Shown piece after piece: positions 905-57,635 of a stretch of DNA of 64,000 nt; position 1 is the stretch's first letter; each line of letters starts with the position of its first letter. The notes under the pieces are model-generated. The model ran no database searches, was not told where the DNA came from, and saw nothing but the letters and a program-made list of their open reading frames with translations. Source of the DNA: Pelagomonas calceolata. Lineage: Eukaryota. A program made the position numbers and the translations under genes. Location: positions 4,030,001 through 4,094,000 of the forward strand of contig CAKKNE010000001.1 of NCBI GenBank assembly GCA_918797485.1. The letters are read 5' to 3'.

Positions 905-2879
905 TTTGATAGCTTAGGTTTCTTGGGGCGGCTTTCTGGTCGAGTCCTAGCTACTGCACGACGCCACTGCCACGCCGCGGGCACGCCATCGCCGCGTTGA
1001 CAGCGTCGCAGCGTGTCTAAACGAGCTCCCAAATTCAGAATGCATCATAGTCGGTCGCAGCGACCAAAATTTGACAGTAGTGGCCACACAGAGCCAAACT
1101 CTGAGCTAGCGTAACGACATACTAGCAAATTCAAAGATACGCTTCGATAGCGTCAAAAGAATGACTCAAATTCAGAATACATCCTAGTCGTTCGCCGAGA
1201 CCAAATATTTCAGAGCAGCGGCCCGGGAACATACCCTCGCGCCTCCCGGAAGGCACCGCCAGCGACATTCGCGGATGAGACTTACGGCTTCCCAAAGTAC
1301 ACCAGCGATTGACGCCGCCATCTACCGTCCAGATAGTACATTATATCAACTCCAGCCCAGTTTTCATACGGAATCGACGGAACCGGAGCCGACGGCGCGC
1401 GCTCGGAGGGCGGGAAAAGAATTCTACTAGACAACTCTCGCGTTTATGTTCGTTTCCTTCCGTTTGTTAGTAGTAGAGGCCGTCCAGGCCGCCTGGGCGG
1501 GGATGAGCTATGTTAGAGGATCTGTTGGAGCCGCGCGAAACGGAGATTCCGGGTCCACAAGTTTACACATAGACGGGCACAAAACCTAGACCCGCGAGTA
1601 CCAGCGACGCCACCATCCAGATGGACCATGACGCCGTTGTTCTATTCACGATCGACCGACTTGCCCGTTCTCCGCTGGCGACGGTGCGTACGCGAGGCAC
1701 TGGAAAGGCCCCAGACCCGTGAGTTATGAAATAAATTTGCGTTTCAGGCGCTTTAGTGGTGGGACGGTCCAGAATACCGGCCTGAGCGTGTACTACATTG
1801 AATTATCTCTTCCGAAGGCTCCCGGCGGCTCGGCCATTCCGAGACCCCAGGATCTCGTTTAAACTGGTCTAAGAACTGGACCTGCGGCCATCAGCCCGTG
1901 TACCATCACCATGGACCATAACGCGATCATTTGCTTCATGACCGAGTGACTTGCGCGAGGTCCAGATAAAGATGTTCATGTCCCGAGCGTGGGCAGCCCA
2001 AAGTACCCTTCTCGTGGTGTAGATGCCATATATTTGTAATTGACTATCGGTGGGGTAGTATAGGGTCCAACGAGACCGCTACGGCGACTACTGGGGGCCC
2101 TCGGGTAATTGACGTTTTTGACGGGGACGGGGCGCCATCGGGCCCAAATTATTTACTTTTTTCGGATGTAGATCGGCTCCCGGACGCTCTCCGGGATAGG
2201 TCTAAGGTCGGGTAGTCGCCTAGGCCGCATGCGCCGGCGCTTGGGGCTCTCCAGAGAGCTCTGGATCCAAAACTTTGGGGGACCCCCCCCGGGCTAGGTT
2301 CCTGCGGTTGCGTAGGTCGTTAGGTAGGTGGGGGATCATGGTAGTTGTCCGCAACGTGCTGGGGACCTGTACTGATATGTATCTAACGATCGAAGCGCCC
2401 GCGCATGCGCTGTAGGCGATTGCACGTGTATAATACCGACCCTAAGCGACCTCCGGGAGGCCTCTGGGCCACCTATGGACAGGATTCCACCGGCGCGCCC
2501 GACCCCTTTGGCCCGTCAATATCGCGAATTAAAAAATTATTTTTTTAGAGCCCCAGTAAGTGTTCCATTGATCTCTTTGGACCAGTAGCGAACCGAACGG
2601 TACTCAAGCCGCTGCATGCGCATATGTTTCAATACCTAGTGTGTCTCTCGCCTAGCTGAGGTGCGCCAGCGCGGCCTTTGTCGCTCTCTGGCTTGCCAAG
2701 CACAAGCGTGATTTCCCCAATTGCGCAGCCTACCGCACAACTGCCAGCCGGTGACGCGCGTGCAAGCTCTGCTGTACGCTGCCGCAGCGCGCCTCACAAG
2801 CAAAGGCAAAGGCAGCACGCAGCGACGCCAACGGTTGCCACTGTGCGAGCTGCTTCAAATTACAGTTTGACAGCGATCA

Positions 2880-4400
2880 ATGCGCCGCTTATTAATCCTA
2901 GCGCTCGCCGCCTGCGCCGCAGCGCACGAGTCCTGCTGCGAGAAGGCCACCAAAGCGGAGCCCGAGTTCATCATCGACCCGGACGACGCGCCGCCCGACG
3001 TCTACGAGGGCGAGCCGCGCTACGTCGCGGACCCGGCGGACACGGCGCCCGCCGCGTGGGACGAGGACGAGGACGGGCCGTACGAGCGGCGGTTGATCGA
3101 GAACCCGCGGTACGCGTGGGCGCCGCGGGAGATAGAAAACCCGAGGTACCGACCGCCGGCGTCGCTCGGGGAGCGCTACGCCGACGAGGTGCGCGAGGCG
3201 GCGCCGTGGGTCGCGCTCGGCGCTGTCGTCGCGGCCGTGCTCGACGCGGCGCCCGTGCCGTCGTTCGCGGGGGCGTTGAAAACGCCGGGCGCGGCCGGCG
3301 TCGTGGCCGGCGCGTTGGTCGGCCTCGCGACGCCGCTGTGCTCGTGCGGAGTGCTCCCGGGCGCGGCGGCGCTCGCGGCGGAGGGCGTTCCTCTGGGCTC
3401 CGTCGTCGCGTTCCTCACGGCCGCGCAGTCGTCCGGATTGGATTCGGCGGCGATCACGTACGGCCTGCTCGGCTGGCGCGCGGCGCTGGCGCGGCTCCTA
3501 GGTGCCGTCGTCCTAGCCTGCGCCGCGGGCCTCGCCGTCGGCCGCTCCGCGGCGACGCCGAGGAAGGAGAGCAGCCAGAGAGACGCGCGCCTCGACGCCA
3601 AGCCGCTCAAGGGCTTTGGACCGAAGAAGGTCGACGCCTTCGCCGCGGCCGGGGTCCACACGGTAGCGGAGCTGGCCCACTTCGCCGTGTCGGACCAGGC
3701 CTTGGCCACGAAGACCGGTCTACCCGTGAAGACCGTGAGCAAGTGGCGCGACGCGGCCGGCGACTGGCTCGAGCACAATACCTCGAACGGAGGCGGGCCG
3801 CCGACGAAGCAGCCGACGAACGTGGTGGCGACGGCGCTCCGCGTCGCCGCCGAGGTCTTTCCCAGTGTTTTAGTCGGTCTCGCCGTGTCGACGGCGGCGC
3901 TGCACTACGCGCCGTCCCTCGCCTCGGCGCACGACGCCTACGCCTCGGCGGCAAGCGGCGCGGTCCTGCGCCTCGCCACGCTCGCGGCGACGATTCCGCT
4001 GCAGCTCTGCGAGCACGCGACCGTCACGTTGGCCGCCGGCGTGCAAAAGGGCGGCGGCTCGGCGGGCCTGGCGTTCGCCTTTCTCCTGGCCGCGCCGGCG
4101 ACGAACGCGTCGAGCCTCCTGCTCCTGGCGAAGCAACCGTCGGCCGTCGCGCGCGCCGTCAGCGCGCTGACGGCGGCGGCCCTCGTGTTGTCATACGTCG
4201 TGGACCTGGCCGGCGCCGATTTGCTGGTCGTGGCCGAATCCGAATCGGACGGCGGCGGCGGCGGCGGCCTCGAGCTGCCCGGATGGGTCGAGGGACAAGC
4301 CGACGCGCTCGTCGCCCTACTGGCGGTGACGACGCTGTACCACGCCGTACGGCCGAAGCGCCACGGCGAGGCGTGCGGGGACGGGTGCAAGGACGATTAG
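2880..4400 (+). CDS. DUF318/ArsP-like permease with signal peptide, calnexin P-domain-like N-terminal repeat and internal HhH-like insert
   Basis: TPLCSCGVLP, PLQLCEHAT and FLLAAPATN permease motifs; many hydrophobic segments; IIDPDDAPPD..VADPADTAPAAWDEDEDG. Confidence 0.75.
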   Translation: MRRLLILALAACAAAHESCCEKATKAEPEFIIDPDDAPPDVYEGEPRYVADPADTAPAAWDEDEDGPYERRLIENPRYAWAPREIENPRYRPPASLGERYADEVREAAPWVALGAVVAAVLDAAPVPSFAGALKTPGAAGVVAGALVGLATPLCSCGVLPGAAALAAEGVPLGSVVAFLTAAQSSGLDSAAITYGLLGWRAALARLLGAVVLACAAGLAVGRSAATPRKESSQRDARLDAKPLKGFGPKKVDAFAAAGVHTVAELAHFAVSDQALATKTGLPVKTVSKWRDAAGDWLEHNTSNGGGPPTKQPTNVVATALRVAAEVFPSVLVGLAVSTAALHYAPSLASAHDAYASAASGAVLRLATLAATIPLQLCEHATVTLAAGVQKGGGSAGLAFAFLLAAPATNASSLLLLAKQPSAVARAVSALTAAALVLSYVVDLAGADLLVVAESESDGGGGGGLELPGWVEGQADALVALLAVTTLYHAVRPKRHGEACGDGCKDD

Positions 4401-4658
4401 CGGCTGTGTAAGTGAAAGTTTATATAGCGGAATCCCTCCCGGCGCGAACGCCGTGGCCCGGCGCGTCTCCGGCGCCGCGGCCAAATTGCAAAATTGCGTC
4501 GCGACGCCGCCGCGGCTGTCCCGCGAGCAACGGCGTCTTGGGTGGCGTCGCGGTCGTTTCTTTGGCCCTGCGTCCAGGCGGCGATCGCCACAACGCAAGC
4601 GAGCGGCCGTGTGCGGGCTAGAGTATGCCATAGAGTTACGCCGCCGGGTTCAATGCGC

Positions 4659-4889
4659 CTAGAGGATGCGGAACGTGTCTTTGATGCCGTCCCAGCAGGG
4701 GTAGCCGAAGTTCGTGAAGTCGCGCGCCTGGAGCCTGCAGACCCTTTTGGCGAGGGCGGGCGTGTAGTAGTCGAAGCGCTTGTCGGCGGAGTCGCGCGCG
4801 TGGGCGGTGCGCTGGACCTCGCCGATCCAGCCCTGGAGGCGGAGGACCTCTCGCGCGCGGTCGACGGCGCGTCGCGTGTGCGCCAGTTC
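4659..4889 (-). pseudogene. Orphan C-terminal fragment of a Sulfotransfer_2-like protein
   Basis: Manual translation ...FDYYTPALAKRVCRLQARDFTNFGYPCWDG...*; no ATG, in-frame TGA immediately upstream. Confidence 0.4.
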
Positions 4890-5645
4890 TCAGTGGATAA
4901 GAAACTATATGAGGATTTCTGTCCGGAGCGGGGGAGGGGGGCGCCGCGTACCGATGCTCGGATACCGCCCTCCCGCGACCGGTAACGACGATCTATGAGA
5001 AACGCGCGGGCGGCGGGCGTCGTTGGCACTGCAGTAAACCGCGGAGGACCGAGCAGGGAGCCGTCCATACGCCTCCTTGGGGAATTGGAAGGCCCGGAAG
5101 AATCCGGCGGACAAACCCGCGCAGGCCAAGGCTGAAACGCGCAAATGGACGTCCGGCCGCGGTGAGCGCCGCCCAGAAATCTGGCCAGGGCGGTAGGCCG
5201 AGGCGCCCGCGGGGGGACGTCTATGTGTCGAGCCCGGAGGTTTAGTAGTAATGTGTCAAGCTTGCTAGTGTCTTTCGACCGCTAGCTGTGGCCAACTTGG
5301 CCGACAAACTTGCCCGACACAGAGCAACCCATATACGCTCACAAAGTAGCTCCCCGCGTCCCAGACCCCCTTCAACACTCTGGCCGATCACGTACAACGC
5401 CCACTCGCCGAGAACTTCCGCCGCGCGCGCGCTCGAAGACGCTAAACTCCCCTGGAACATGCCAGAGCAAAACCGAAGCTCACGGCACGCCAAGGGCGCG
5501 GCGGGCGCACCAAAGCCGCGGCGGTTTGCCGCGCGCCGGCGCGCGAGGCCGTGCGAACGGCGGCGGCCAAAAGACATCACACAAAAACATTGGCCAGCGG
5601 CCGGCCGCGGCCGCCTAGGCCGGGCTGTACCAGCCCATCTCGCGG

Positions 5646-5840
5646 ATGACCGTGGCGGCGCTCGACGACCTGGGCGTCTACGGGCCGCTGAACTACGACG
5701 CGGCGGACCCCTACCCGGCCACGCGCCGCAAGCTCGAGGAGGGCCCGGGCTTCGAGGTCCTCACGCCGACCGAGAGCTTCACGCTCGACGGCGACGACGA
5801 GTACGTGGTCGAGGTCGAGCCCGTCCCGCTCGACGCGTGA
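5646..5840 (+). CDS. Small acidic hypothetical protein or terminal exon (frame open from 5619)
   Basis: Coding-like codon usage with GC-rich third positions; preceded by possible acceptor CCTAG ending at 5618. Confidence 0.4.
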   Translation: MTVAALDDLGVYGPLNYDAADPYPATRRKLEEGPGFEVLTPTESFTLDGDDEYVVEVEPVPLDA

Positions 5841-5917
5841 TCGCGCGCACAAGAGTCCCCTCCCCCCCCCCTCTCGCTTCCCGCCTAAAAAAAAAAACAA
5901 ATATATATATATGTATA

Positions 5918-6919
5918 TTAGGCCCAGCTCCGCGGCTTCCTCAGGACGTCCACGAGCCGCGCTTCTGGAGAACCAATCGCAGGCTCGGCCTTGTACTGCC
6001 ACGCTATCAGGGGCGGCGCCGAGACCATGATGCGCTCGATGGCGTCGGGACTCAACCCGAAGCGGACGCCGCGGTCGTTCAGCAAGTTGAACTCGAGGTA
6101 GCGGCCCCGCCTCAAAAGTTGCCACTGGCGCTGCGCCTCCGCCACGGCGTCGCCGCGCCGCCGCGCGACGATCGGCGCCCACGAGGCGATCATCGTCTCG
6201 AGCACCCGTCGCGCCAAAGCGTCCGCGTCCGCGGACGCGTCGTCGTCCCAGAAGACGCCCCCCACTCCGCGGTGCTCCTGTCGCAGGGGCAGGTAGAAGT
6301 ACCCGTCGCACGTTTGCTTCATGTCCTGATATCTCCCCTTGCAGACGTCGCGCCAGTGCGCGTGGAACCCTCGAATATCGTCCTCCACGACGTAGCAGGG
6401 CGTCAGGTCGCAGCCGCCCCCGTACCACGCCTCCCTCGGTTCATCGTTTTCGTCAAACACCACGAAACATCTCGCGTCGCCCCTGAGAGTGGGCACGTGC
6501 GGGCTCTTCGCGTGCAGCACCAGCGACAGCGCCGCGGCCTCGAAGCGGTCGCCCGCCTTGACGTTTTCGCGGCCCCGGCTGCACATGGCCTCGGCCCGCG
6601 CCTTCGTGAGCGTCCCCTGTATGTACGACGTGGAGATGCAGCCCTTCTCCACGAGGGCGCCGTCCGCGATGACTCTCGTGAGTCCGTGGCTGCCGTCGCC
6701 GCGGGTCCACGCGTCCTCGCCGAAGGACGATGTCCCGTCCAGCGCCTCGACGGCGTTGCACATGACCTCCTGCTGCTCGGCTAAAAAGTCCTTGAAGGCG
6801 CCGAAGGCCGTCGCCGACGCGTGCTGCGGCTGTTGTGGCTTACGGCGCACGAGCCTTTTGAGGCTGTTGAGCAGCGCATCGGTCGTAGCGACGGCGAGCA
6901 GTAGCACGGCGAGCCGCAT
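5918..6919 (-). CDS. hemF: Coproporphyrinogen III oxidase (aerobic, HemF/CPOX family), divergent, with signal peptide
   Basis: WYGGGCDLTP, YFYLP.RQEHRGVGGVFWDD, LRRGRYLEFNLLNDRGVRFGL. Confidence 0.9.
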   Translation of the reverse strand: MRLAVLLLAVATTDALLNSLKRLVRRKPQQPQHASATAFGAFKDFLAEQQEVMCNAVEALDGTSSFGEDAWTRGDGSHGLTRVIADGALVEKGCISTSYIQGTLTKARAEAMCSRGRENVKAGDRFEAAALSLVLHAKSPHVPTLRGDARCFVVFDENDEPREAWYGGGCDLTPCYVVEDDIRGFHAHWRDVCKGRYQDMKQTCDGYFYLPLRQEHRGVGGVFWDDDASADADALARRVLETMIASWAPIVARRRGDAVAEAQRQWQLLRRGRYLEFNLLNDRGVRFGLSPDAIERIMVSAPPLIAWQYKAEPAIGSPEARLVDVLRKPRSWA

Positions 6920-7314
6920 GGCTGCTGTCAATGCGCACGGCAGCTTGCTCCTCTGCAGCAGATTGATGCTGCTCGGACGCGTTAACTATAATGCAGGAGC
7001 CGCGTCGAATACGTGTGTCGGCACGGCTGCGATCGCTGGGGTGTGCTGCGTGCGCTGGCGTCGCGCGCTGGTAGATGTCTCAAGCCAGATAACTGCAGCT
7101 TCGTGAGATGCAGCACCCACACGCTGTGCGCCCAGCGTAGCTCGACTAGCGCTGACAGGCTCACAGACAGACCTCAGAAGTCTTCAGAACTTGCATGCGA
7201 CGACCAAAACTCCTCGCAAGCACCATCGCCTCGGCTGCAGCCCTCCGCAGCGCTACCCTCAGCCGGCCGGCCGTGAAACGCAGCAGCGTCGTCGCGACCC
7301 GCGCAAAAGAGACG

Positions 7315-7776
7315 ATGGCAGAGGCCGACCTCCTGAGCTGCATCGTACGAACGAAACAAAAAAAGACGGACTTCAAGGGCAAGCGCGTCGGGCTCTACTT
7401 CGCCGCGGGCTGGTGCCCCATGTGCACGTCCTTCGAGCCGTCGCTCGTGCAATTCGTCGAGGCGACCCGAAGCCCGGAAAGCAATGCCCCGCCGGTGCAG
7501 CTCATCTACGTGAGCTCCGACATGGACGAGGCGGCCGCCGAGACGCGCGCCGCCGCGCTCGGCATGGATCGGGTGGACTTCGCCATGGCCCAGACGCTCA
7601 AGACGACGTTCAAGGTCTGGTCCGGGCGCGAGCGGCCCGAGTTCGGCGACGGGCGCCGCGGCGGCGTGCCGGCGATCGTCGTCGTCGACCGCGACTGCGG
7701 TGAGCTCCAGTACCTCAACGCGGAGGGCGAAGGCGCCGCGGCGCTGGGGAAGTGGAAGGATGAGGGCGCCTGGTGA
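7315..7776 (+). CDS. Nucleoredoxin/tryparedoxin-like thioredoxin
   Basis: GKRVGLYFAAGWCPMC, IYVSSD, GVPAIVVVD; alternative upstream ATG at 7195. Confidence 0.8.
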   Translation: MAEADLLSCIVRTKQKKTDFKGKRVGLYFAAGWCPMCTSFEPSLVQFVEATRSPESNAPPVQLIYVSSDMDEAAAETRAAALGMDRVDFAMAQTLKTTFKVWSGRERPEFGDGRRGGVPAIVVVDRDCGELQYLNAEGEGAAALGKWKDEGAW

Positions 7777-7831
7777 GTCTTAAAGTATTCTTCGGGCGCT
7801 CTGTAGATTTCTTAGGACGCGTTCGTCGCGC

Positions 7832-8183
7832 TCACGCGGCCTCGTCCGCGGCCGCCTCGTCGTCGGCCGCGTCGGCCGCGTCGGCCAGCTCGAACATGTC
7901 GCCCAAATCGAGGTCCATGGCGTCTCCCCCGTCGCCGTCGGCGTCGTCGGCCGCAGCGACGGGCGGCGCCGTCGGCAACGGTGGCGCGGCGCTCGACCTG
8001 TGCGCAAATCAATTGTGAGTCGGGGGCCGTGGGCAAAGAAGCGACGATATATATATGCACTACGGGTCAGTACGAGCTTGTAGGATTGATAAAGTTGGAC
8101 ATGGCCACAGAGCGCGCCGTCAGCGGCTGCGGCGCGAACGCTAGAGCACCACACATCATCGCAAAACACAATACTATCTTCAT
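7832..8183 (-). CDS. Small acidic, putatively plastid-targeted protein; 2 exons (8183-8074, 7997-7832)
   Basis: MKIVLCFAMMCGALA-FAP presequence; GT-AG intron 8073-7998 gives a 276-nt in-frame CDS with Asp/Ala-rich tail; missed by the ORF track. Confidence 0.65.
7998..8073 (-). mobile_element. Decayed introner-like intron (76 nt)
   Basis: 3' end TTGATTTGCGCACAG resembles the family TIR; other TIR and TSD not recognisable. Confidence 0.5.
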
Positions 8184-8560
8184 AGCGCTGGGGCTGCCCG
8201 GTGGCCGTGGGAGAAGACGAAATCTTCTCATCAGAGTAAGCAAATCCACTAATGTGCGGGTGCGGGTGCGCCTGCCGTTCCGAGGGCAGGGAGGACCGAG
8301 GGCCGCCCGAGGACGGTATGCGACGCTTGGGAGGGGAGCCTACTAAAATAATGTGGTACAAGTAATGGCCGCGACGCGCGCTCGGGGTCCGTACTAGAGG
8401 GGCTAGCTCAATCTCACTCATCGCCGCGACGACTTCTGCGCCTCCTTCTAGCGGGAAAAGAACAGTGTAGTGATTTTGTATACTTATGTCCCATCCGGTC
8501 AGTAGCCCGCCGCCGCGGCGCCGCCGCGCAAGGGAAAGGAAAGAATGGTTGATCACGATT

Positions 8561-9409
8561 CTACGGGCCGCAGTCCGCGCGCGCCGCGAGCTCCGTGTCC
8601 TCGACGTCGTTCCAGTCGTACTTGCGGAAGTAGTCCCAGGTGCGCATCTTTTCGGCTCTCATAGTGTTCACGTCGCCGCGCGACATTTTGGTTTCCCGGA
8701 AGTACTGTTTCGACTGGATCGCGTAGTGGTTGAGGTGGAGGGGCGCGGCTTTGAGAAGTTCCTCGGAGATGAGCGTGCGGTGTGGCCCCTCGCGCCCGGC
8801 GACGACGTGCGAGTGAATGACGAACCGCTCCAGCGCCGCGACGCGCGCCAGGCTCTTGCCTGGAATAATCATAGGCTTGTGGTAGGCGCGGCGCCACGTG
8901 AAGCCGCAGACCGTGCCGTTGCGGGGCTGCGCGTCGCGGCCCGACGAACCGAACATCTTCCAGGGCACGGCGACGTCATTCGCTGCGCCCGGGTCGAGGA
9001 CGTCGCGGACGGTTTGCGCGAGCGTCGGCGGCCACCGCCTTCCGGGATCCCGCGCGTAGAGGTACTCGTCCAGGTCGATGACCACCACCCAGTCGCGTGG
9101 GAACTCGCGCTTCAGGAGCGGCAGCGCGTACTTGTTGTAGAGCGCCACCTGGCCGTGCGCGGCGCCGTCCGTCGTCACGCGGACGCGGTCGCCGAACGGC
9201 GCGACCACGCGTTGCCAGTCGTCCGTGCTGCCGTTGTCCACCAGGATCGCGGCCACGGCGCCCTGCGCGTTGAGGTAGTAGTCGAGCCACGGCCCCAGGT
9301 TCGGCGCCTCGTTCTTGAAGATGCCCACGATCACGAGGCCCGGGGGCCGGTCGAGCACGATGCCTTGGGCGGCGCACAAGACGAGGGTCGTTATGAAGGG
9401 AAAGGCCAT
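8561..9409 (-). CDS. GT-A fold glycosyltransferase (GT2/GT92-like)
   Basis: IFKNEAP.L..WLDYY, LVDNGSTD, WVVVIDLDEY (DxD), LNHY. Confidence 0.8.
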   Translation of the reverse strand: MAFPFITTLVLCAAQGIVLDRPPGLVIVGIFKNEAPNLGPWLDYYLNAQGAVAAILVDNGSTDDWQRVVAPFGDRVRVTTDGAAHGQVALYNKYALPLLKREFPRDWVVVIDLDEYLYARDPGRRWPPTLAQTVRDVLDPGAANDVAVPWKMFGSSGRDAQPRNGTVCGFTWRRAYHKPMIIPGKSLARVAALERFVIHSHVVAGREGPHRTLISEELLKAAPLHLNHYAIQSKQYFRETKMSRGDVNTMRAEKMRTWDYFRKYDWNDVEDTELAARADCGP

Positions 9410-10010
9410 CCTGTGTTGGCCCACTGTTGGGACCGGGCGGACGTCTCTATGCGGGGAAGGTGTAGCTGACGTTGGCGCGAAGCCTGCGAGCGGAGCACGC
9501 TTTAAGGGCGGGGGGTGAGTGAGTGGCGGACCACTGGCGGTCGCCGGTCGGGAGTGGTCACTCGGTGGTGTAACACTGGTGTTGCGGTGCCGCGCGACCC
9601 GGCCCGGTTCAGATAGATATTTTTAGGGCCAGAGAGGACTCACCGGCGGGCGTTATCCTCTTTTGTCACTCGCGACGCCCCGTGTCTGCCACGATAGTAG
9701 CTAGTTACGTTTGTCTGCCACGATTAAGCCATGAAAACCCCCCCTCCAAGCTCTTACCCTAGCCCCCAAGATTCCCCCAATAAAACGCGCCAGGAATCGC
9801 GCGCCAGAAAACCCACCCCCCGGCTAGCCAAGCGCCATGATTCAACGCGCGGAGGACGGAGGTGTGGCAGCGGTGGATGTCACCCTCCACGCCACCGAGA
9901 AGACGGACGGCGACAACCGCGTCGACGGTGTGGGCACTAAAGGTGGTTCGAATTTAAGGGGCCCCGCGGGAAGGGACCGGGCGCGGCGGCGGATGGGAGA
10001 CACGGGTCCG

Positions 10011-12121
10011 CTAGTGCAGCTGCGCGACGTCGTGCTCGCGCTCGTGGACGGACTTGAGGAGGTGCGTGAACTCCTGCAGCGAGATGCTCCCGTCCCGGTC
10101 GTGGTCCAGCTCCTCCACGAGGATGGTCATCTCCTCCTCCGTCATGCTGATGCCGAAGCGCCGCAGGCCCTCCGTGAACTCGCTGTGGGCCACGCTCCCG
10201 CTCCCGTCGTTGTCGAAGAGGGCGAACACCTTCTTCGCCGTGTGCTCGATGGACTGGTCGTTCTCCGACGTCTCCGCCTGCGTCGCCATGAAGCTGAGGA
10301 ACTCGCTCCGGCTCACCTGGCCGTCGCCGTCGTGGTCCATGCCGGTCAGCATCGCCGCCGCCTGCGCGCCCGACGACTCCATGCCCAGCGACGCCAGCAG
10401 CTCGCTGAGCTCGTCCGCGTCGAGGTGGCCCGTGCCGTCCGCGTCGTACAGGTCGAAGGTCTGGGCCAGCTGCCGCTGGTCCTCCTCATTCACTCCCGTG
10501 GCCGAGGCGCGCGGCGACAGCGCCTGCTCGGGGCCGCCCGGCGTGGCCGGCGCGGTCACGATCTGCGCCCGGAGGCCGTAGAGTGTCTTCAGGAGCTTCA
10601 CGGCGCGCGAGGCCTTCGTCTCCCGGAGGACCTGGCCGACCAGTTTCCGGTTGCGAAACGTGCCCACCGAGCCGCAGTGGATGGCCAGCGGCACGGCCTC
10701 GCGCGCGACGAGCGCGATGCCGACCGTCGGCGCGAGCGCGAAGAGGACGTAGCCGCCCGTCGCCGGCACCGACGAGTGCTTGCACACGCGCGGCGCGAAG
10801 GTCATCACGACCAGCGACACGTAGACCGCCTGGAGCAGCAGCAGGAGCCGGCAGGCGAAGACGTGCGACTCGTGGCCCTTCTCCTCGAAGAGGAAGAGCC
10901 GGTGCTGCTTGTTCGGCGCGTGCCCGCAGAAGAGCCGCCGCACGTGGTGCCGCTCCGCCTCCTCGATCCGCGCGTCGACGGCGCAGGCCCAGCCCGGGAG
11001 GTCCTGGCCGACGATCGGCGTGAACTCGCCCCTCGTGTCCGCGCCTCCAATGTAATCGCGCGCCGCCGGGTCCATCGTGCCCCGGGCGATCCGGCGCACG
11101 TGGTTCAGGAACGCGAGCGCCAGCGCGAAGATCGCGTACTCGAAGGCGACCCAGCCCGCGGCCAGGAGGAAGGGCCCGTCGTTGACGGCCACGACGCCGC
11201 ACCACGCGACGGCCAGCGCCTCGAGGACGACCCAGGTCGGCCAGTCCACGTCGACCATCTCGACGAGGTCCTCGGACAGCGAGAGCATGAGGTAGCGCGC
11301 GTAGTCGAACGTGGCCGGGAGCCTGTTCCTGGAGTCGGCGTGCGGCGGGAGGAGGCTCCGGTCCCGCAGGAACTCCTGGCGCATGCCCCAGTACGCGATG
11401 ACCTCCTTCTTCGACAGGCGGCCGAGGATCGGCGTGTTTGGTGAAGGCGGCGGCGGCGCGCCCGCGAGCCACGGGTAGGGCACGTTACTGTCCGCGACGG
11501 CCGCGCACCACTTGTCCAGGGCGCGCCACCTTCTCTTCAAGTTGTTGCCCACGCGCACCATGCCCATGACGAGCAATACAAAGACGATCATCACCAAAAA
11601 CAGCGTGTAGTGCGCCGTCTCCACGAGCTCCTCGAGCTCCTCCTCCTCGACCTCCTCGCCGTACAGCACGTGGGCCAGCAGGCCCCAGAGCCCGCACTTG
11701 CCCGCCACCGTCGTCACGATCGACAGGAAGCCGAGCACCGTGACCTCGGCGAACGTCTGCCTCACCACGGGCTTCATGGTCGGCACGCTCGAGTGGATCA
11801 TGTGCTCCTGGGTCCGTTCGAAGAAGATCGTGAGCGCGACGAGGAACGACAGGATGCCGAGCAGCGTCGCGGCCATGGTCACCTGTGTGGAAATCAACCA
11901 GTGCGTCGGGTGCACCCGATAATTCTTCACTAAGTCATTTCTCGGCGATGACGCGGCAGTGCTGGCCCCGTCGAGCGGTGAGGAACCAGCACCGCCACGC
12001 CATCGAGCAGGCATCACGTCGATGGCGTGGAGGTCGACGCTACGATGCAGCACGCAATTTTGATTTCCACACAGATGGTCACCTTGCCCATCTCCGGCGC
12101 CTCCTCGTGGAAATTTTCCAT
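10011..12121 (-). CDS. MLO-family membrane protein with C-terminal four-EF-hand domain; 2 exons (12121-12083, 11882-10011)
   Basis: EVTVLGFLS and TFDYARYL..SL.EDLVEMVDVDW..W match MLO motifs; EF loops DADGTGHLDADE, DHDGDGQVSRSE, DNDGSGSVAHSE, DHDRDGSISLQE. Confidence 0.8.
11883..12082 (-). mobile_element. Introner (200-nt GT-AG intron)
   Basis: TIRs begin 11883 and end 12074; perfect TSD ATGGTCAC at 11875-11882 and 12075-12082; splicing gives MGK|VTM. Confidence 0.95.
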
Positions 12122-12571: not shown

Positions 12572-12597
12572 CCGCGCGGCGCTGTCGCGGCCAGACC

Positions 12598-14557: not shown

Positions 14558-14580
14558 AGCTAGCGGCTGTAAGACACTAG
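14558..14580 (-). promoter_or_regulatory. Representative copy of the recurrent intergenic CTAGT...CGCTAGCT motif
   Basis: CTAGTGTCTTACAGCCGCTAGCT; at least 11 related copies in other intergenic regions; function inferred only. Confidence 0.5.
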
Positions 14581-22745: not shown

Positions 22746-23097
22746 GGCGCTGTGTTTGTTATGGATATAAGAGATGTACTCAGGCTCAGGCTAGTTACGT
22801 CGCGGGGTCCCCCGTACCCCTCCCGCTCCCCCCGGGCCCACCCGTCCGGCTGGACTAGGACGCAAGGGCTGAGTCACAGGGTACTATTGCTAGTGCCTTA
22901 CACCCGCTAGCTAAATCACGCGCACGCCCCCGTCATCAACGTGTAACTCACGAGCACTTGCATCGTTTTTGACCGCACTCGGCGAAACGCTCCCACTGGT
23001 TCACGCGTCGAAGGAATCGTTGCAAATTCCACGCGTTCGCTAGCACACAGCTCAAAAATACAGCAAAAACCATCATTGTACTGCATCCCTGAACATA

Positions 23098-24335: not shown

Positions 24336-24754
24336 CGCGTCGGCGGCGTCGGGGGCGGTGCGACTTTTATATGTCGCACGCGTTTAGCCTTTAGTTATCG
24401 CGTCGATAGCGTCGAGCCGGTGTCGCGCCGCGAACGACTGCGATCACTGCGGCTGAGAAGCAGGGTGGTGCTTTGGAGCTTGCCCACTGCGCCCGGTGAG
24501 CGTTCAAAGATCCGAAATTTTCAAGCAGCGCTGCTGCAAGTGCGAGTTTCTTCGCACGTATCGTAGCCAGCCAGCGCGTACAGCTCGAGCGCGACGGCAG
24601 AAAAGCTAGCGGCCTATAAAGGCACTAGGAATAGCTGGGCTGCTTCCGCCTCACGCTGCTGCTGCCCCGGCTGCACCGCATTGGTAGACGAGTCGTGCAC
24701 ATGCATGCCGGCAACGAATAACAAAAAGATTTGAGCGCTATGGCACGTTAAAAC

Positions 24755-28742: not shown

Positions 28743-28950
28743 TTTGCACCGCAGAATGGTCGCTTAGAGCAGCTCTTGGCCAGTTGCATGCGAAAACTAG
28801 TGTTAATATCGCTAACACCCAAAAAATAATAAAGCAGACAAGGCCCCTTCAGCGTGGCAGACCGTAGCGTACGGGGCATTGTTTGCCCACCGAACGTCGG
28901 CTGCTGACCTCCTGCGTCCAGCCCGCAGCCGTGTTTGTCTCCCAAACACC

Positions 28951-32976: not shown

Positions 32977-33355
32977 GGATGTCTGTGTGCCACCACCACA
33001 CCCTTGCTCTGCTGTTGCGCTGCTGGCGCGGTAAGTAAACCGTTGCTGCCTTCTTGGCCGGGGCGACACCAATGAGCAAATCCTGGCCCACGCGCGCCGC
33101 AAATTCGTAGCAAAGGCTGCCCAACCCCAACTTGTTGTGAAAGCACTCGGCGCTCCAGCAGACCACCCAGGATGCACCAGGGCGTCCTTCAGGCAACGGG
33201 GAGCTCTGAGCGAGCCCCGAGGACGTCTCGCCGTCGATGCCTAGTGGCCTTAGCTAGCGGACCTACTAGCGGTTGGCCAAAACTGACAGCAAAGCCGAGG
33301 AAGACCAGCAAAGCAGGGACGGGGCAGCCCACCGCTGCCGGGACGACACAAAACC

Positions 33356-35464: not shown

Positions 35465-35689
35465 GGTGCTCTCCAGATTCCCGGAACACGGACGAGCTTG
35501 AGCTATCAAGATCTGCGCGCCCTGGGCGCAGCTGGACGCGAGTGTTCCTTATTGCCCCGCCAGTCCTATAGCGGCCTTAGACACCGTCCCTGGACCCAAG
35601 AAGCTGTGGCAGCGCCGGGACTGGAGCTAGCGAACAAACATACTAGTCTGAGCCTGAGCCTGAAAAAGACATATATCGCACACACATTA

Positions 35690-39688: not shown

Positions 39689-40020
39689 GCTATCAATACA
39701 AGAGCTGCCCGGCACGTGTCGAAAGCTGCCCCGGTGCACGGAGAGAATGCGTTGGACGTGTCCAGCCGCCCCGCGGCCTCCAGTGCGGCCGCCCGTGGCT
39801 TATGCGTTGTGCAGCCGAGCTAGCGTCATGTAAGGCTCTAGCAAACATCCCGACGTTTTGCGTTTGGTGCCGTGCCGTTCGTCCGTGCGCGCGGCCAGGA
39901 TGACGACGCGATAGTTAAAAGTCAATTAACAGGCTTGGGGCAGCGCGTACGACAGCTGCTGCCAGGGGGGGGCACCGCCACACATACTGGCCCGGGGCAG
40001 CCGCAGCCCTCACGAAGGCC

Positions 40021-42453: not shown

Positions 42454-42764
42454 GTTTTTTGTGCTCTTTTTTATGTTGTATGGGTGTTCCTAGTCCGAGC
42501 TGACGACTCGTGTGAGCGGTGTTTTTTTTCGCTAGTGTGTCATTGTCGCTAGCCTTTTTTTTTTTGTTGAGGTCTCGAGCCCTGGACCGCATTTGCCGTG
42601 CAGCATTTTAGACATCTCTCGCATCAGCTCATTTGCTCGCATCGCTGGCGAGATTCACGTCGCTGCTTGCTTCAAAGGAGCAGCCCAGCCGCCAGCAGCC
42701 AGTGTGCAGCGGCCACGCGGCGCAAACGCTGTCGACGCGACCATTGCCAAGCAGCACAGACAAA

Positions 42765-44480: not shown

Positions 44481-44801
44481 CTCTGCTGGGGGCAGCAAGA
44501 TCCGTGGATGTGTTGTGAGCGTCCCCAGCGCCCCGGGCAGCCCCTTAAAACTCGCCCGGCTCGTCCAGGCAGCTGCTCTGACGATGAATCGGAGCCGGCG
44601 GTGTCCTGGCGACCAGTAAATCACCCTCCAAAGCCAAAGCGCCGGCAGCCAAACACTAGCGTGGCGTGACATACTAGGGAAAAGTTGCAAAATTAAATTT
44701 TGTGTCCAGCAGCCTCGTGCATGCCATCGACGGACTGCGCACGGCACAAGACTTTCCTCGGCCAGACATTACTCCTTAGACGCCGTCGACGCTGCCCCGA
44801 T

Positions 44802-46361: not shown

Positions 46362-46375
46362 GTAAAATCCAAATA

Positions 46376-46774
46376 TTAGCCTTGCGGGGGTATCTGCGAG
46401 CCCCCCTCGCCGGGCGCCGTCGCTCTGCAGCTAATACGCTTGTCCCTCAAAAACTGCATGATCTGCGGCGGCATCTCGCCCTCGAGCCGCATGGCGTAGA
46501 CGCCCGGCAAATTTCGCGAGATGCCCTCCCAGCGCGCGACCCAGGAGTCGTCGGGCTTCATCATCGCGACCATCCCTTCAAAATTGGAGGTCGTGCAGCT
46601 CTGGACGCGGTCCTGCCGCTCGGCCAATTCGAGGAAGGGACAGTTCTCGCAGCCCTCCGCATAAAACTGATCAAAACACTTCACGAGGCCGCACCGGAGG
46701 CAGGCCCGGTGGCCCTTCATCGAGTTCGGCACGTCGGCCATCTCGCGGTCGGCGTCGTCCACTAGAGCGGCCAT
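46376..46774 (-). CDS. SPT4: Transcription elongation factor Spt4
   Basis: RACLRCGLVK..DQF...GCENC, CTTSNFEG, SWVARW, PGVYA. Confidence 0.95.
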   Translation of the reverse strand: MAALVDDADREMADVPNSMKGHRACLRCGLVKCFDQFYAEGCENCPFLELAERQDRVQSCTTSNFEGMVAMMKPDDSWVARWEGISRNLPGVYAMRLEGEMPPQIMQFLRDKRISCRATAPGEGGSQIPPQG

Positions 46775-47295
46775 GGTCTATTTATGCGCTCGCGGCGGCG
46801 GCGTGAGGGCGCGCGCCGCGGCGGCAGCGATGCCGCAGCGGCGGCGAGATTGTAGCTTGGGAGCGTCTACGCGGCGCAGCGATGCGCGCAGCCGGCGTAG
46901 CGGTTTGGATCACAACGTAGCGTACTCCTAGTCAGCTTTTTTGCGCTTCAGTTAAGCTGTATACGACGCGCGAGAGACGCCGCGCCTCGTGCTTTGCTGG
47001 CTAGTGTGTCTTACAGTCGGTAGCTGCGGGATGTCTGCGAGCTGTTGGACGTATTGGAGACGCGTACGGCACATACTAATACTACTAGACCGTCTCTAAG
47101 GCTCAGCTCCAAACAGCCCCAATTATTTCAGGCATCCATCCTCTCCCAAAAGCCGACACGACGTGTACGCTCGCCGCCGACCCCCGTTGCAAGCAAAGCT
47201 GTCGGTGCATCGCTAACACTCTTGCAAGCTGCCAACGCAAGGAAATTGCACGCCGCCACCGCTGCGCATCCAGCACAAACACAAATCGAAAAAAA

Positions 47296-48729
47296 ATGCG
47301 TTTCATCAAGGAGTGTTTTCAGCGCCCGCCCGAGGAGGGCAAGGGCCCCTGGCCCCACCGCGCCGCCGAGCCCTGGCGTAGTATGAACAAAGTAGGAGAC
47401 AGAGAGGGCGTCGACGAGCTCTTCCAGGCCGGCGAGACGTCCGAAGCGCCTCTTGAGCTAGATAGGGATACGCTGAGCGGCGACCTCGGCCCGCTCAAGT
47501 ACAAGAAGTACGACTTGTTGATTGTCGGCTGTGGCTTATCCGGTTGTGTGCTAGCTGAGCGCTGTTCGAGAGAACTGGGAATGACGTCACTCATTATCGA
47601 TGTCAGAGACCACATCGGAGGCAACTGCTACGATTATCTGGACGAAGCAGGCATCCGCTGTAGTAAGTACGGCGCGCACTTGTTCCATACGAAATATGAA
47701 AGAGTGTGGAAGTACGTGACACGCTTTAGCGAGTGGATGGCTAATGATCACAGGGTCAGGGGCATGGTGCCCGACTTCGAGGGCGTGAAGAAGCTGGTGC
47801 CGATTCCGCCGACGCAGGAGACGGTCAACACCCTATTTCCCGACGCCAACATCAATTCAGAGGACGACATGCTGCGGTGGTACGAGGGCCAGCGCGTCAA
47901 GCCGTCAAGTGGTGAAGCGAAGAACGGGGAGGAGGCCGCTCTATCTCGAGTCGGACCTCTCTTATACGAGCGCATCTTCAAGCACTACACGAAGAAGCAG
48001 TGGGACAAGTATCCCGCGGAATTAGACGCCTCGGTGCTGATGCGCTTGCCTTGTAGAACGTCGACGGACGACCGCTACTTCGGCGACGCCTGGCAGGCAT
48101 TGCCCGTTCGCGGTTATACGCGTATTTTTGAAAATATGCTGCTCAGGGACCCCAAAATTACCATCAAGCTCAATGTCGACTTCTTCGCCGCTAGAGAGGC
48201 TGGGCTGTTGCCCGCGCATGGCAAGCTCGTCTTCACGGGCCCCATCGACGCCTACTTCGCGGCCCAGGGCCTCCCGAAGCTCGAGTACCGCTCTTTAAGA
48301 TTTGAGGAGGAGTTCATTGAAGAGCCCGAGGACGGCTTCTACCAGCCCGCGTTCGTCGTCAACCACCCCTCGTCCGACGTGCCCTTCACGCGCATCGTCG
48401 AGTACAAGCACGTGCCGAACCAACCTAGCAATGTCAAGGCAGGTCAAGTCAAGGGCACGCGCATCGCCAAGGAATATAGTTCCGCGGAGGGCGACCCGTA
48501 CTACCCCGTGCCGAACCCGGAAAACCGCGCGTTGTACGAACGTTACAGACAGTTGGCCGAGAAGGAGTCGGACGTCTGCTTCGTCGGCCGGTTAGCGTCC
48601 TACAAGTACTTCAACATGGACCAGGCCATCCTCAACGCGCTGGAGATGTTCGACTCGCTCAAGGAGTCCGGGAAATTGCAGCCGAAGCGGCGGCCCGAGG
48701 ACTTCGGGCCCGGCGACGGGCCGAAGTAG
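47296..48729 (+). CDS. glf: UDP-galactopyranose mutase, bacterial-type
   Basis: IVGCGLSG, RDHIGGNCYD, YGAHLFHT, YTKKQW, TRIVEYKH, PYYP, GRLASYKYFNMDQA. Confidence 0.93.
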   Translation: MRFIKECFQRPPEEGKGPWPHRAAEPWRSMNKVGDREGVDELFQAGETSEAPLELDRDTLSGDLGPLKYKKYDLLIVGCGLSGCVLAERCSRELGMTSLIIDVRDHIGGNCYDYLDEAGIRCSKYGAHLFHTKYERVWKYVTRFSEWMANDHRVRGMVPDFEGVKKLVPIPPTQETVNTLFPDANINSEDDMLRWYEGQRVKPSSGEAKNGEEAALSRVGPLLYERIFKHYTKKQWDKYPAELDASVLMRLPCRTSTDDRYFGDAWQALPVRGYTRIFENMLLRDPKITIKLNVDFFAAREAGLLPAHGKLVFTGPIDAYFAAQGLPKLEYRSLRFEEEFIEEPEDGFYQPAFVVNHPSSDVPFTRIVEYKHVPNQPSNVKAGQVKGTRIAKEYSSAEGDPYYPVPNPENRALYERYRQLAEKESDVCFVGRLASYKYFNMDQAILNALEMFDSLKESGKLQPKRRPEDFGPGDGPK

Positions 48730-50775: not shown

Positions 50776-52234
50776 ATGTCGCCACTTTGTTTCATCCTGG
50801 CCGCGCTTGTCTGCGCGGCCCCGGAGGGACGGGATACGCGGCCTCGGGCACGGACGCCCCCGGGCCCGTCGACGTACTGCGGCCAGGGATACAGGTGCCG
50901 CGGCAGCGGCCGCGAGATGCGGTGCCACCCGGACGTCGCGTGCGACGACAGGGAATTAAGAAGTGGTCCGTGCGCGGTAGCGACCGCGTGCCTCGAAAAG
51001 TGCGTCGCGGACCCGGGGGGCGAGGCCTGCGACATGCCCTGCCACGGATCGCCGCTGCGCTCGCGCGCGACCGGCGCCGCCCCGCCGCCGGACCTGAAGG
51101 TTGCGTATTTTTTGAATCATCGCAAGGTGGCGGGGACGAGCATGCTCGCCGCGCTCAAGCGAGTCGCGGGGCGCGTCGGCGTCGACGGGGGCTCGCTGCT
51201 CGTCGCCAAGGAGGATCTCCGGCCCTTCAACCCGAATTTGTTCTGCAAACCGGAGACCAGCGCGGGCGTGCTCTACGTCACGGTACTTCGGCACCCGCTG
51301 CACCGGCTCGTGAGTTTGTACCACTCCGAGAACAACTTCGGGGACCGGAACCCGGCCGCGAACCGCAACGCAACGGCCTGGGGCGCCTTCCTCGACGGCT
51401 CGTGCACGCGGCACAGGTGCGCGGCGCCGAACTACTACACGCGGCGCTTGCTCGGCTTCGCCCGCGTGACGAAGGCGCCCGCGGACTGCAAACCGCGCGG
51501 GTTGAAGGGGCGGAACTCCGAACAATGCGACGTCGCGGCGCCGGGGACCTGCGCCGAGCCGACGTTCCACCCCCGGTGGCTCCACGACGTCGACCAGGCC
51601 GCGGCGCGGCAGATCGATTGCTGCAACGCCTTCGCGGAGGGCAAGACGCGCCGCGGTCGCCACCTGTGTGGAAATCAAAATTTTACGGCGTGTTCGTGCA
51701 GAATCGTCTCGTCGCCCTCCACGCCATCGACGCGACGCCTGCTCGATGGCGTGGCGATGCCGGTTCCTCACCGATCGACCGAGCCAACACGGCTGCGTCA
51801 TCGTCGAGAAATGACTTCGTGAAGAATTATCGGGTGCACCCGACGCACTGGTTGATTTCCACACAGGTCGCATCGGGTTCGCGTTCTCGTGCGACTGCGG
51901 GCGAGGCGCGGGCCGAGTGCTGAGCGACTTGACGAGCGACGTGGGTATCGCCGTCTCGTCGAGCGAGGTGGCCTTCCAGGTCGCGAAGCGTGTCCTCGAT
52001 GCGTTCGACTTCGCCGTGGCGCTGGAGCGCATGGACGAGCGCGCGGCGCAGAAACTCTCCCAACTCCTCGGCACGACCGTGACGTTCCCACACCACCGCA
52101 CAAGGGCCGGAGGCAGCGGCGGCTTCAACAGACTCGCCGCGGCCATGCCGACCAGCATCCGCGATCGCATCCTGCGGCAACACGACGTGGACGTGCGCCT
52201 CCACGCCTGGCTCGCGGCGCGCCCCCTCCCTTAA
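50776..52234 (+). CDS. Sulfotransferase-like secreted/Golgi protein; 2 exons (50776-51655, 51867-52234)
   Basis: 5'-PSB-like HRKVAGTS and 3'-PB-like LRHPLHRLVSLY; signal peptide. Confidence 0.78.
51656..51866 (+). mobile_element. Introner (211-nt GT-AG intron)
   Basis: Perfect TIRs spanning 51664-51866; TSD GTCGCCAC / GTCGCATC (2 mismatches). Confidence 0.93.
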
Positions 52235-56201: not shown

Positions 56202-57164
56202 CTACTTAGAGAAGAGCCAGCTCCCGACGTCCCCCGCCTCCTCGGCCGCGACCTCGACGGCGGGCGCTTCGTCAGCAGGCGCAGCGGGCGCCGGCGCGGC
56301 GACGTCGCCCACCGCCAATTTCCGCAGCGCGCGCTGCTCGCCGACGACCTTCGAGAGTGATGCGGCCCGCGCCCGCGCGTCCGACGCCGCCGCGGGCGAC
56401 GCGTCCACCCGCACCTTCGGGTCCGCCAAAGCAGAAGCCCAGTCGAACGCGCGCACCGCGTCGACGTCGTCGGGCGCCGGCAGCGCCGCGAGCGCCGCGG
56501 CGCAGCAGTCCGCGTCGCTTTTTGCCGCCGCGTGCGCGTCGCGCGACTGTTGCGCGGCGGCTTCGAGGGCGTCCGCGAGGCCGGCATCGGCCTCGACGAT
56601 GTCTGCCTTGGCGTCCGCGAGCCGGCGCAGGGACTCCTGTAACTCTGGTTCAGGGGTCAGCTTGGCCACCTCCCCCAGCGACGCGGCCAGCTCCTTCTCC
56701 GTGGCGACGCGCGTGCGCTTCGCCGCGGCGACCTCGGCGTAGGTCGTCTCGGAGGCCTTGACTTCCGCCGCACGAGTTGTGCACGCCTCGGCTTCCTGGG
56801 CCAATGCTTGCCGCGCGAGGTCGGCGGCTCGCGCCAACGCCGCGTCGGCCTCGGCTCGCAATCTTTCGGCTGCGGCGAGCTTTTGGGCTGAGGACTGCGC
56901 CATCGTACTCCGCGCGGCCGCGGACGCCTCCTCGGCGACGAGCGCCGCCTCTAACGAGGTCATCAGCGTCTCGTCTTCGGTCTCCGCTGGCGGTGCCACT
57001 GGTGGGGCCTCGACTGGTGGCGCTGCATGGGCTGCCTCGCTCTCGGGCTCTGCTGGCACTGCACTGCTCTCAGAGTGGCATACCACTCGAGCTGTTCGCG
57101 GCAGCGTTGGTACGAAAGCTTGCGTGAGTCGAAGGGCGAGGAGGAGTAAGCATTTGCGATGCAT
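56202..57164 (-). CDS. Putative plastid-targeted Ala-rich coiled-coil protein
   Basis: LTQA-FVP presequence; clean ORF. Confidence 0.7.
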   Translation of the reverse strand: MHRKCLLLLALRLTQAFVPTLPRTARVVCHSESSAVPAEPESEAAHAAPPVEAPPVAPPAETEDETLMTSLEAALVAEEASAAARSTMAQSSAQKLAAAERLRAEADAALARAADLARQALAQEAEACTTRAAEVKASETTYAEVAAAKRTRVATEKELAASLGEVAKLTPEPELQESLRRLADAKADIVEADAGLADALEAAAQQSRDAHAAAKSDADCCAAALAALPAPDDVDAVRAFDWASALADPKVRVDASPAAASDARARAASLSKVVGEQRALRKLAVGDVAAPAPAAPADEAPAVEVAAEEAGDVGSWLFSK

Positions 57165-57635
57165 GTTTGAATGCCGTCCACTTCGATTAACGCGAGTCTG
57201 GGCACTGCAATCGTCATGCGTAATTGAGCTTGCGCTAGTGTCTTTACCGGCCGCTAGCTACGACCCTGCCTAGAACGATCACGTATAGATGGGTGGAAGG
57301 ACCAGACGACTGAGGGCGTCTTCGCAGAAGCCCTCGGCTGGAACGCTGACTGGCGCAGCAACACGTGGCTCGAGGCCGGCCGGCCGCTCTAGGAAGCTAA
57401 AACTGCACAACCGATGGTTAGTACACGGAACTCGAACGGTTCCCACCAGGGGGCCCGGGGCCTTCGCGCCCGATTCACGCCTCAAGAAGAGAGACGGAGC
57501 ACGGGGCGGGATCGACGGGGTGGTGGGGAGACGAAGCGAGGGGGATGATGTTGTGGGAGGGGGTGTCCGCGTTCACGCCGGCCGGCGGGGCACGCGGAGA
57601 AGTCTTGTTGTTGAGAGAGGTTTCAGGAATCCGTT

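What the first reader, a model, noticed from the sequence alone, without database searches (positions are those of the whole stretch)
1104..57259. Recurrent intergenic motif CTAGTRY(N)xCGCTAGCT in gene 5' flanks
Seen, written in motif sense: 1104-1125(-) CTAGTATGTCGTTACGCTAGCT; 2636-2657(+) CTAGTGTGTCTCTCGCCTAGCT; 5265-5287(+) CTAGTGTCTTTCGACCGCTAGCT; 14558-14580(-) CTAGTGTCTTACAGCCGCTAGCT; 22890-22912(+) CTAGTGCCTTACACCCGCTAGCT; 24604-24628(-) CTAGTGCCTTTATAGGCCGCTAGCT; 35625-35646(-) CTAGTATGTTTGTTCGCTAGCT; 39818-39841(-) CTAGAGCCTTACATGACGCTAGCT; 42532-42554(+) CTAGTGTGTCATTGTCGCTAGCC; 44654-44677(-) CTAGTATGTCACGCCACGCTAGTG; 47001-47025(+) CTAGTGTGTCTTACAGTCGGTAGCT; 57235-57259(+) CTAGTGTCTTTACCGGCCGCTAGCT; weaker copy at 28797. 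I found none in CDS or at convergent junctions. Usually there is one per spacer, roughly 70-360 bp upstream of an ATG. Two CTAG half-sites 16-19 bp apart suggest a bipartite protein-binding site. Inference: a lineage-specific core-promoter, nucleosome-positioning or insulator element. Alternatives are a transposon footprint or a Helitron-like CTAG|T end. I know of no description of it.
Basis: partly seen in the sequence, partly recalled or inferred. Interest (0 to 1): 0.8.

Follow-up and report, generated by a model that had tools for sequence, protein, structure and literature searches.

The report
Two-part promoter motif of pelagophyte alga
A roughly 28-base, two-part DNA motif recurs between genes of an abundant marine microalga, only on the promoter side of genes and facing either way, and is likely the binding site of a still unidentified protein that would keep promoters open for transcription in both directions.

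Summary
The motif is real. All 12 copies are at the stated coordinates; a strict pattern gives 9 matches against 0.04 expected. A metagenome scan returned 123 loci (121 kept) and a fuller consensus, (G)CTTG-CTAGTGTCTTACAGGCCGCTAGCT. None of 143 copies lies in predicted coding sequence, none in 58 convergent spacers (length-corrected P about 0.01). Orientation is not fixed. The arms are near-invariant and occur together, while the spacer varies in sequence and length. Most flanks are unique, and the motif survives as an island in a diverged syntenic pair. RNA 5' ends pile up 40-46 bp from the motif centre on either side in 3 of 4 cases. Base composition is mirror-symmetric around it, with T-tracts beside it. 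Helitron end, hairpin and mini-intron readings failed their tests. Best reading: the site of a general regulatory factor, working like yeast Reb1/Abf1 sites. Binding, chromatin effect and the protein are inferred, not shown. My paper searches found no description of it. The host is a pelagophyte, probably Pelagomonas.

The parts
1104..1125 (-). motif copy at the left edge of a 1.5-kb non-coding repeat, facing the 3' end of the gene that ends at 904
   Evidence: (36.8 bits)
1130..2618 (.). multi-copy non-coding repeat (ends approximate), bracketed by two outward-pointing motif copies; long inverted repeats at 2101-2531
2636..2657 (+). motif copy about 220 bp before the ATG at 2880
5265..5287 (+). 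motif copy in a divergent spacer; minus-strand RNA covers position 5253, so that transcript probably starts at or inside the motif
14558..14580 (-). motif copy in a divergent spacer; plus-strand RNA 5' ends at 14612, 43 bp from the centre, on the motif's 5' side; kept in L004 (97% identical locus) with one spacer change
22890..22912 (+). motif copy in a tandem spacer
24604..24628 (-). motif copy in a divergent spacer
28797..28816 (+). weak variant (shorter spacer, right arm ends CGCTAA) in a divergent spacer; below the matrix threshold
33241..33270 (.). weak candidate: three CTAG units 12-13 bp apart in a divergent spacer
35625..35646 (-). motif copy in a tandem spacer, 44 bp past a stop codon; RNA 5' ends at 35590, 45.5 bp from the centre
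39818..39841 (-). motif copy in the divergent spacer between a TPR gene and a kinesin gene
42532..42554 (+). motif copy in a tandem spacer, followed by a T run
44654..44677 (-). motif copy in a divergent spacer; RNA 5' ends at 44626, 39.5 bp from the centre
47001..47025 (+). motif copy in the divergent spacer before the UDP-galactopyranose mutase gene; RNA 5' ends at 47147-47158, 134-145 bp from the centre
57235..57259 (+). motif copy in a tandem spacer of minus-strand genes, pointing against them
59792..59815 (+). weak variant (12.5 bits, within the range of shuffles) in a divergent spacer

Best explanation
The motif is a genome-wide, orientation-free element of promoter spacers and is likely the binding site of a general regulatory factor that would hold a nucleosome-free region open and let RNA polymerase II start on either side. 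Shown: anatomy (two imperfect inverted arms, TGCTAGTG and CGCTAGCT, CTAG units 15-20 bp apart, peak at 18, an asymmetric TCTTAC spacer, T-tracts on the 3' side), location in 5' spacers, usually one copy per spacer, and nearby RNA 5' ends. Inferred: a dimer or two-domain protein with a flexible linker reads the two arms; it acts as a barrier, helped by the T-tracts and a remodeller; nucleosomes are set at equal distances on both sides; one site serves both genes of a divergent pair. The protein is not identified.
For: 0 of 143 copies in predicted CDS; 31 of 60 divergent, 23 of 57 tandem/intron and 0 of 58 convergent spacers carry it (loci were selected for the motif, so the first two fractions are inflated; in the unselected window 6 of 14 divergent spacers by hand count). 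Centre-to-ATG median 190 bp, minimum 57 (n=67). 0 of 26 divergent spacers hold two copies (rough P=0.02). In 31 copies not selected by the scan pattern, CTAGT and CGCTA are 29-31 of 31 per position while spacer positions are 14-24 of 31 (one spacer T 29 of 31) (heterogeneity P=6e-23). 26 of 41 left halves have a right arm; lone halves (15 left, 20 right) are near or below shuffle counts (4-11, 46-71). The motif is an island in the syntenic pair L010/L068, 73-91% identical over aligned stretches, with poorly aligned DNA next to it. RNA 5' ends lie 39.5, 43 and 45.5 bp from the centre, on both sides. CG dip at +/-150-165 and CG peak at +/-300 on both sides (n=144, r=0.72; amplitude 0.0127 against at most 0.0078 in 300 jittered anchors; no such dip or peak in the ATG-anchored profile). 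TTTT is enriched 20-50 bp from the centre (107 seen, 28 expected). Yeast Reb1 sites phase arrays symmetrically regardless of orientation (10.1101/2020.02.28.969618, passages); Abf1/Reb1 sites have polyA tracts 20-80 bp away (10.1101/266072, passages).
Against: No binding, chromatin or reporter data. Only 4 promoters have resolved RNA 5' ends, from one sample of polyA RNA-seq, not CAGE; one lies 134-145 bp away, and at 5265 the transcript seems to start at or in the motif (estimated from depth). Expressed promoters without the motif exist (5' ends at 12171, 12353, 15463). The composition peaks could follow from start-site position and not from nucleosomes; no 10-bp periodicity was found and dyads cannot be assigned. 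The long spacer 901-2880 and L085 each hold two copies. A repeat family ends 14-21 bp 5' of the motif in 4 loci. The conservation evidence is one diverged syntenic pair, found by a scan that required the motif. Read outward from the motif the tracts are mostly T; whether this matches the yeast arrangement was not checked.
Confidence: 0.6

Rival explanations
1. A bidirectional core-promoter element: the bound factor recruits the pre-initiation complex directly (a TATA substitute, or SNAPc-like), fixing starts about 30 bp from either edge.
For: 3 of 4 resolved RNA 5' ends lie 39.5-45.5 bp from the centre, on both sides; the arms form an inverted pair; no ATG is closer than 57 bp.
Against: One start at 134-145 bp and one apparently at the motif; a CA/AG-rich, CG-poor landmark at +/-150 could mark the usual start instead; many promoters lack the motif.
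Confidence: 0.17
2. A transposon end or footprint (Helitron-like or MITE-like) spread by a mobile element, now neutral or only partly co-opted.
For: One dominant full-length consensus including the spacer; T follows the first CTAG in 30 of 31 unselected copies; a repeat family abuts the motif in 4 loci and is bracketed by two copies in the window.
Against: 124 of 145 upstream and 137 of 145 downstream flanks have no homologue among the other copies; no hairpin before the CTAG (-4.39 against -4.12 kcal/mol shuffled, n=144); conservation is position-specific, with few decayed or half copies; position kept in a diverged syntenic pair; putative empty site TGCTAGCT seen only twice in 318 kb.
Confidence: 0.09
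3. A boundary or roadblock site (insulator, read-through barrier, cohesin/condensin anchor or replication-origin signal) that merely lies in open promoter DNA.
For: One copy per spacer, orientation-free; sits as close as about 45 bp to upstream stop codons in tandem spacers; symmetric flanking pattern.
Against: Absent from convergent spacers, where a roadblock would be most useful (0 of 57, P=0.011); one per 5 kb is denser than typical origins (own knowledge).
Confidence: 0.11
4. A structure or RNA-level signal: DNA/RNA hairpin, 17-20-nt mini-intron (GT...TTAC...CTAG) or small RNA.
For: The arms can pair over 5-6 bp with a G-T wobble; the inner sequence resembles splice signals.
Against: No compensatory changes between arms and mean DNA hairpin energy of only -3.2 kcal/mol; no listed joint or deletion at the 9 copies covered (coverage there is low and the tables are truncated); no Rfam or tRNA match; orientation is free.
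Confidence: 0.03

Closest known systems
Yeast general regulatory factor sites (Reb1, Abf1, Rap1)
   Same: Abundant promoter sites that work in either orientation, with symmetric phasing and neighbouring homopolymer tracts. Abf1's site is also bipartite (recalled).
   Different: No sequence likeness (recalled consensus); longer (about 28 bp), spacer length varies over 15-20 bp; factor unknown; barrier function untested here.
Oomycete promoter motifs (Phytophthora infestans; Inr/FPR recalled)
   Same: Stramenopile promoter motifs with position bias in compact divergent spacers (PMC3597505, passages).
   Different: That paper's main text has no CTAG string and about half of its non-palindromic motifs have an orientation bias; Inr/FPR overlaps the start site and is directional (recalled).
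Helitron 3' end (hairpin + CTRR, then T; recalled)
   Same: CTAG followed by T.
   Different: No hairpin, no shared element body upstream, and the conserved part continues past the T.
CTCF / Phaser-type architectural barrier sites
   Same: Long motif that serves as an alignment point for nucleosome arrays (named).
   Different: Here confined to promoter spacers, very dense, two arms with a flexible spacer; insulation untested.
RFX X-box and ApiAP2 TAGCTA sites (recalled)
   Same: Share short GCTAG / CTAGCAA-like words.
   Different: Only word-level likeness; RFX is recalled as absent from stramenopiles; not tested.

Membership tests
General regulatory factor (GRF/barrier) site | Abundant and confined to promoter spacers | tested here: met
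General regulatory factor (GRF/barrier) site | Acts in either orientation, often shared by divergent genes | tested here: met
   10 of 15 and 21 of 34 same orientation, not significant; RNA 5' ends on both sides
General regulatory factor (GRF/barrier) site | Sequence under constraint | tested here: inconclusive
   position-specific conservation and one diverged syntenic pair, subject to ascertainment
General regulatory factor (GRF/barrier) site | Phased nucleosomes on both sides of a depleted region | tested here: inconclusive
   only a symmetric composition profile; no MNase data
General regulatory factor (GRF/barrier) site | Bound by a sequence-specific protein whose loss fills the depleted region | not testable with these tools
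   needs pull-down, footprinting and depletion
Classical core-promoter element (TATA/Inr type) | Fixed orientation to the gene | tested here: not met
Classical core-promoter element (TATA/Inr type) | Fixed distance to the start site | tested here: inconclusive
   39.5, 43, 45.5 and 134-145 bp, one apparently near 0
Helitron 3' terminus | CTRR followed by host T | tested here: met
   30 of 31 unselected copies
Helitron 3' terminus | GC-rich hairpin shortly before CTRR | tested here: not met
Helitron 3' terminus | Shared element body 5' of CTRR and unrelated host DNA after the T | tested here: not met
   21 of 145 share any upstream flank; DNA after the T is the conserved part
Spliceosomal mini-intron | Excised from RNA | tested here: inconclusive
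   no listed joints or deletions at 9 copies, but coverage is low; outside CDS and orientation-free
Structured hairpin element (REP-like) | Stable stem with compensatory changes | tested here: not met

The most novel reading that the evidence does not exclude
One long bipartite site is the promoter seed for thousands of genes in this alga, fixing bidirectional initiation without a TATA box, and was seeded through the genome by a repeat family that carries it at its ends (as at window 1104-2657): a transposon-derived general promoter code in an ochrophyte.
Probability: 0.1. Interest if true: 0.88.

Novelty: new member of a known kind. Interest (0 to 1): 0.62.

Why it matters
My searches found no promoter element described for pelagophytes, which include one of the most abundant oceanic eukaryotes (abstracts). 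An element at roughly 2,500-6,000 promoters (extrapolated from 12 per 64 kb in the window and 19 per 254 kb in locus flanks, assuming a 32-Mb genome) gives direct bait to find the factor that opens promoters in this lineage, a landmark for gene and start-site annotation in environmental assemblies, a part for synthetic bidirectional promoters, and a marker for misbinned algal contigs in bacterial MAGs.

Tried and rejected
No whole genome is held, so genome-wide counts are extrapolations. Rfam and ARAGORN: nothing. Viral contigs: 56 matches to a loose pattern look like chance (spread spacer lengths, 1 of 56 with the TTAC spacer); 0 for the tight pattern; 0 for the end of the adjacent repeat. 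Prokaryote genomes: 0 for the 27-mer, 9 for a looser pattern, of which 7 are in marine MAG contigs with alga-like flanks (inferred misbinning) and 2 look like chance. 10-bp periodicity near the motif: none convincing. Window-wide CG autocorrelation: weak, not used. L023/L044 looked orthologous but the homology does not span the motif in register. L049/L093 are members of a multi-copy family, so not counted as orthologues. Rows dropped before counts: L020 and L024 (judged chance from composition and spacer), L004 (same locus as the window) from then on except. Huff and Zilberman 2014 and Huff et al. 2016 were not held, so linker CG methylation in pelagophytes is recalled only; PMC9860276 passages confirm Introner insertion in linkers in Aureococcus. 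Earlier scan notes: nothing. Whether Aureococcus or other pelagophytes carry the motif could not be tested.
Full report
Observation. All 12 strings are at the stated places. The pattern CTAGTRYN{6,14}CGCTAG has 9 matches against 0.04 expected. A two-arm matrix built from the 12 separates them (27-37 bits) from every other independent site (15 or less); none of 20 local shuffles reached 20 bits (circular for the 12 themselves). The site at 28797 is a weak variant.

Host. The window is a compact, 66% GC eukaryotic region with mostly intronless genes and about 200-nt repeated introns. The nearest named relatives of its coproporphyrinogen oxidase are pelagophytes (57% Pelagophyceae sp., 56% Chrysophaeum), and its proteins have many near-identical members in public metagenome assemblies. 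This fits Pelagomonas calceolata (32.4 Mb, 16,667 genes, intron peak near 210 bp; PMC9481584 section 6 and passages). The species name is an inference. No whole genome was held.

More copies. Positions not fixed by the pattern are strongly biased: T, T, G before CTAG in 92, 99 and 96 of 123; A and C after CTT in 63 and 64 of the 69 24-mers. Consensus: (G)CTTG-CTAGTGTCTTACAGGCCGCTAGCT. CTAG-to-CTAG spacing is 15-20 bp, peak 18 (77 of 148, influenced by the pattern). A matrix trained only on the window found 19 further copies of 18 bits or more in 254 kb of flanks, against 1 in shuffles. Viral and prokaryotic collections gave chance-level or misbinned matches only.

Anatomy. In 31 copies not chosen by the scan pattern (12 window, 19 flank) CTAGT and CGCTA are almost invariant and the spacer is not. 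The arms are an imperfect inverted pair (TGCTAGTG; AGCTAGCG on the other strand), but changes in one arm are not matched in the other and the hairpin is weak, so sequence, not pairing, is conserved. The halves occur together: 26 of 41 left halves have a right arm, and lone halves are near or below shuffle counts. T-tracts start 6-10 and 19-26 nt after the right arm.

Place. With a codon model trained on window genes, 0 of 143 copies are in CDS; 31 of 60 divergent, 23 of 57 tandem/intron and 0 of 58 convergent spacers hold one (loci were selected for the motif). Convergent spacers are short, so the fair test is 0 seen against 4.3 expected, P=0.011. Centre-to-ATG distance has median 190 bp and minimum 57 (n=67). 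Orientation is not significantly tied to the gene (10 of 15; 21 of 34). No spacer under 900 bp has two copies (0 of 41), though the 2-kb spacer at 901-2880 and L085 do.

RNA. Stranded polyA reads of one sample were laid on 34300-48300 and 700-15700, covering 9 of the 12 copies. No listed joint or deletion falls in a motif, but coverage there is low and the tables are cut. 5' ends pile up at 35590, 44626 (3' side), 14612 (5' side) and 47147-47158: 45.5, 39.5, 43 and 134-145 bp from the centre. At 5265 reads cover 5253, so that start is probably at or in the motif. Starts at 12171, 12353 and 15463 have no motif.

Symmetric landmarks. Around 144 copies, CG frequency dips at +/-150-165 and peaks at +/-300 on both sides independently (r=0.72). 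The amplitude exceeds all 300 jittered controls, and the ATG-anchored profile lacks these features. This fits nucleosomes or start sites set at fixed distances on both sides; it does not place dyads, and no 10-bp periodicity was seen.

Conservation and the transposon question. 124 of 145 upstream and 137 of 145 downstream flanks have no homologue among the other copies. L010 and L068 are syntenic on both sides, 73-91% identical over aligned stretches, and keep the motif as a block between poorly aligned DNA; their proteins are 96% and 94% identical to one large cluster, so these are diverged lineages or duplicates, not distant genera, and both were found by requiring the motif. Helitron tests failed except for CTAG followed by T. 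Against a clean dismissal: a non-coding repeat at about 1130-2618 ends 14-21 bp before a motif copy in four loci and is bracketed by two copies here. It may carry the motif or prefer open promoter DNA.

Mechanism. Most likely (0.6) a dimeric or two-domain protein binds both arms and acts as a barrier that keeps the spacer nucleosome-free, with symmetric arrays and initiation on either side. It would work like yeast Reb1/Abf1 sites, which phase arrays symmetrically regardless of orientation (10.1101/2020.02.28.969618, passages) and have polyA tracts 20-80 bp away (10.1101/266072, passages). Membership in that class is unproven: binding and chromatin effect could not be tested. Rivals: bidirectional core promoter (0.17), boundary or origin signal (0.11), transposon relic (0.09), structure or RNA signal (0.03).

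Literature. Four motif strings searched anywhere in the library gave 256 papers; the 30 listed were unrelated by title and abstract and none held the two most specific 12-mers (listing only). Searches on pelagophyte or stramenopile promoters (listings) showed no description. PMC9481584: no 'motif' or 'promoter' in the main text, no 'ctag' in 5 readable supplements (one file unreadable, one cut). 10.1101/2024.10.30.620910 and PMC13284251: no 'motif' or 'promoter' in the main text (supplements not seen). PMC8287931 and PMC5728721: passages, not informative. Two Huff papers on pelagophyte chromatin were not held and could bear on novelty; most subscription papers are not searched.

Verdict. Real, genome-wide, apparently undescribed promoter-spacer element; a new member of a known kind by how it probably works; interest 0.62.

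Noticed in passing
window 1130-2618; L120, L006, L110, L086, L069: Low-GC non-coding multi-copy repeat with long inverted repeats and no credible ORF; RNA reads from other copies map to it; one end sits 14-21 bp before a motif copy in 4 loci.
   Followed up: partly
window 11875-12075, 18252-18457, 25816-26021, 27356-27558, 27798-27994, 45487-45697, 51662-51866: About 200-nt repeated introns of Introner type; splicing seen for 11875-12074 and about 45487-45696.
   Followed up: partly
window 44429 and 46083: 53-132 reads per run join these two places with 35 other letters between; could be a paralogue or repeat elsewhere, unexplained.
   Followed up: no
window 46434-46774 (-): Small expressed gene that looks like Spt4 by eye (recalled likeness, not searched), sharing the 47001 divergent spacer with UDP-galactopyranose mutase.
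   Followed up: no
L180-L184, L187, L188: Contigs in marine bacterial and archaeal MAGs carry the algal motif with alga-like flanks: probable misbinning or chimeric contigs.
   Followed up: partly
L002, L007, L017, L032, L038, L042, L049, L055, L093, L095, L119: A multi-copy gene family (L032 member has a MYND-like zinc finger by eye) whose copies often keep the motif with a conserved 5' block.
   Followed up: no
5' flanks in window and loci: GGGCAGCC-type words recur in 5' flanks; no fixed distance from the motif.
   Followed up: partly
window 2880-4400: Protein joining a calreticulin-like stretch to an ArsP-type permease domain.
   Followed up: no
L010 623-1370 versus L068: About 750-bp insertion in L010 relative to its syntenic partner.
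   Followed up: no
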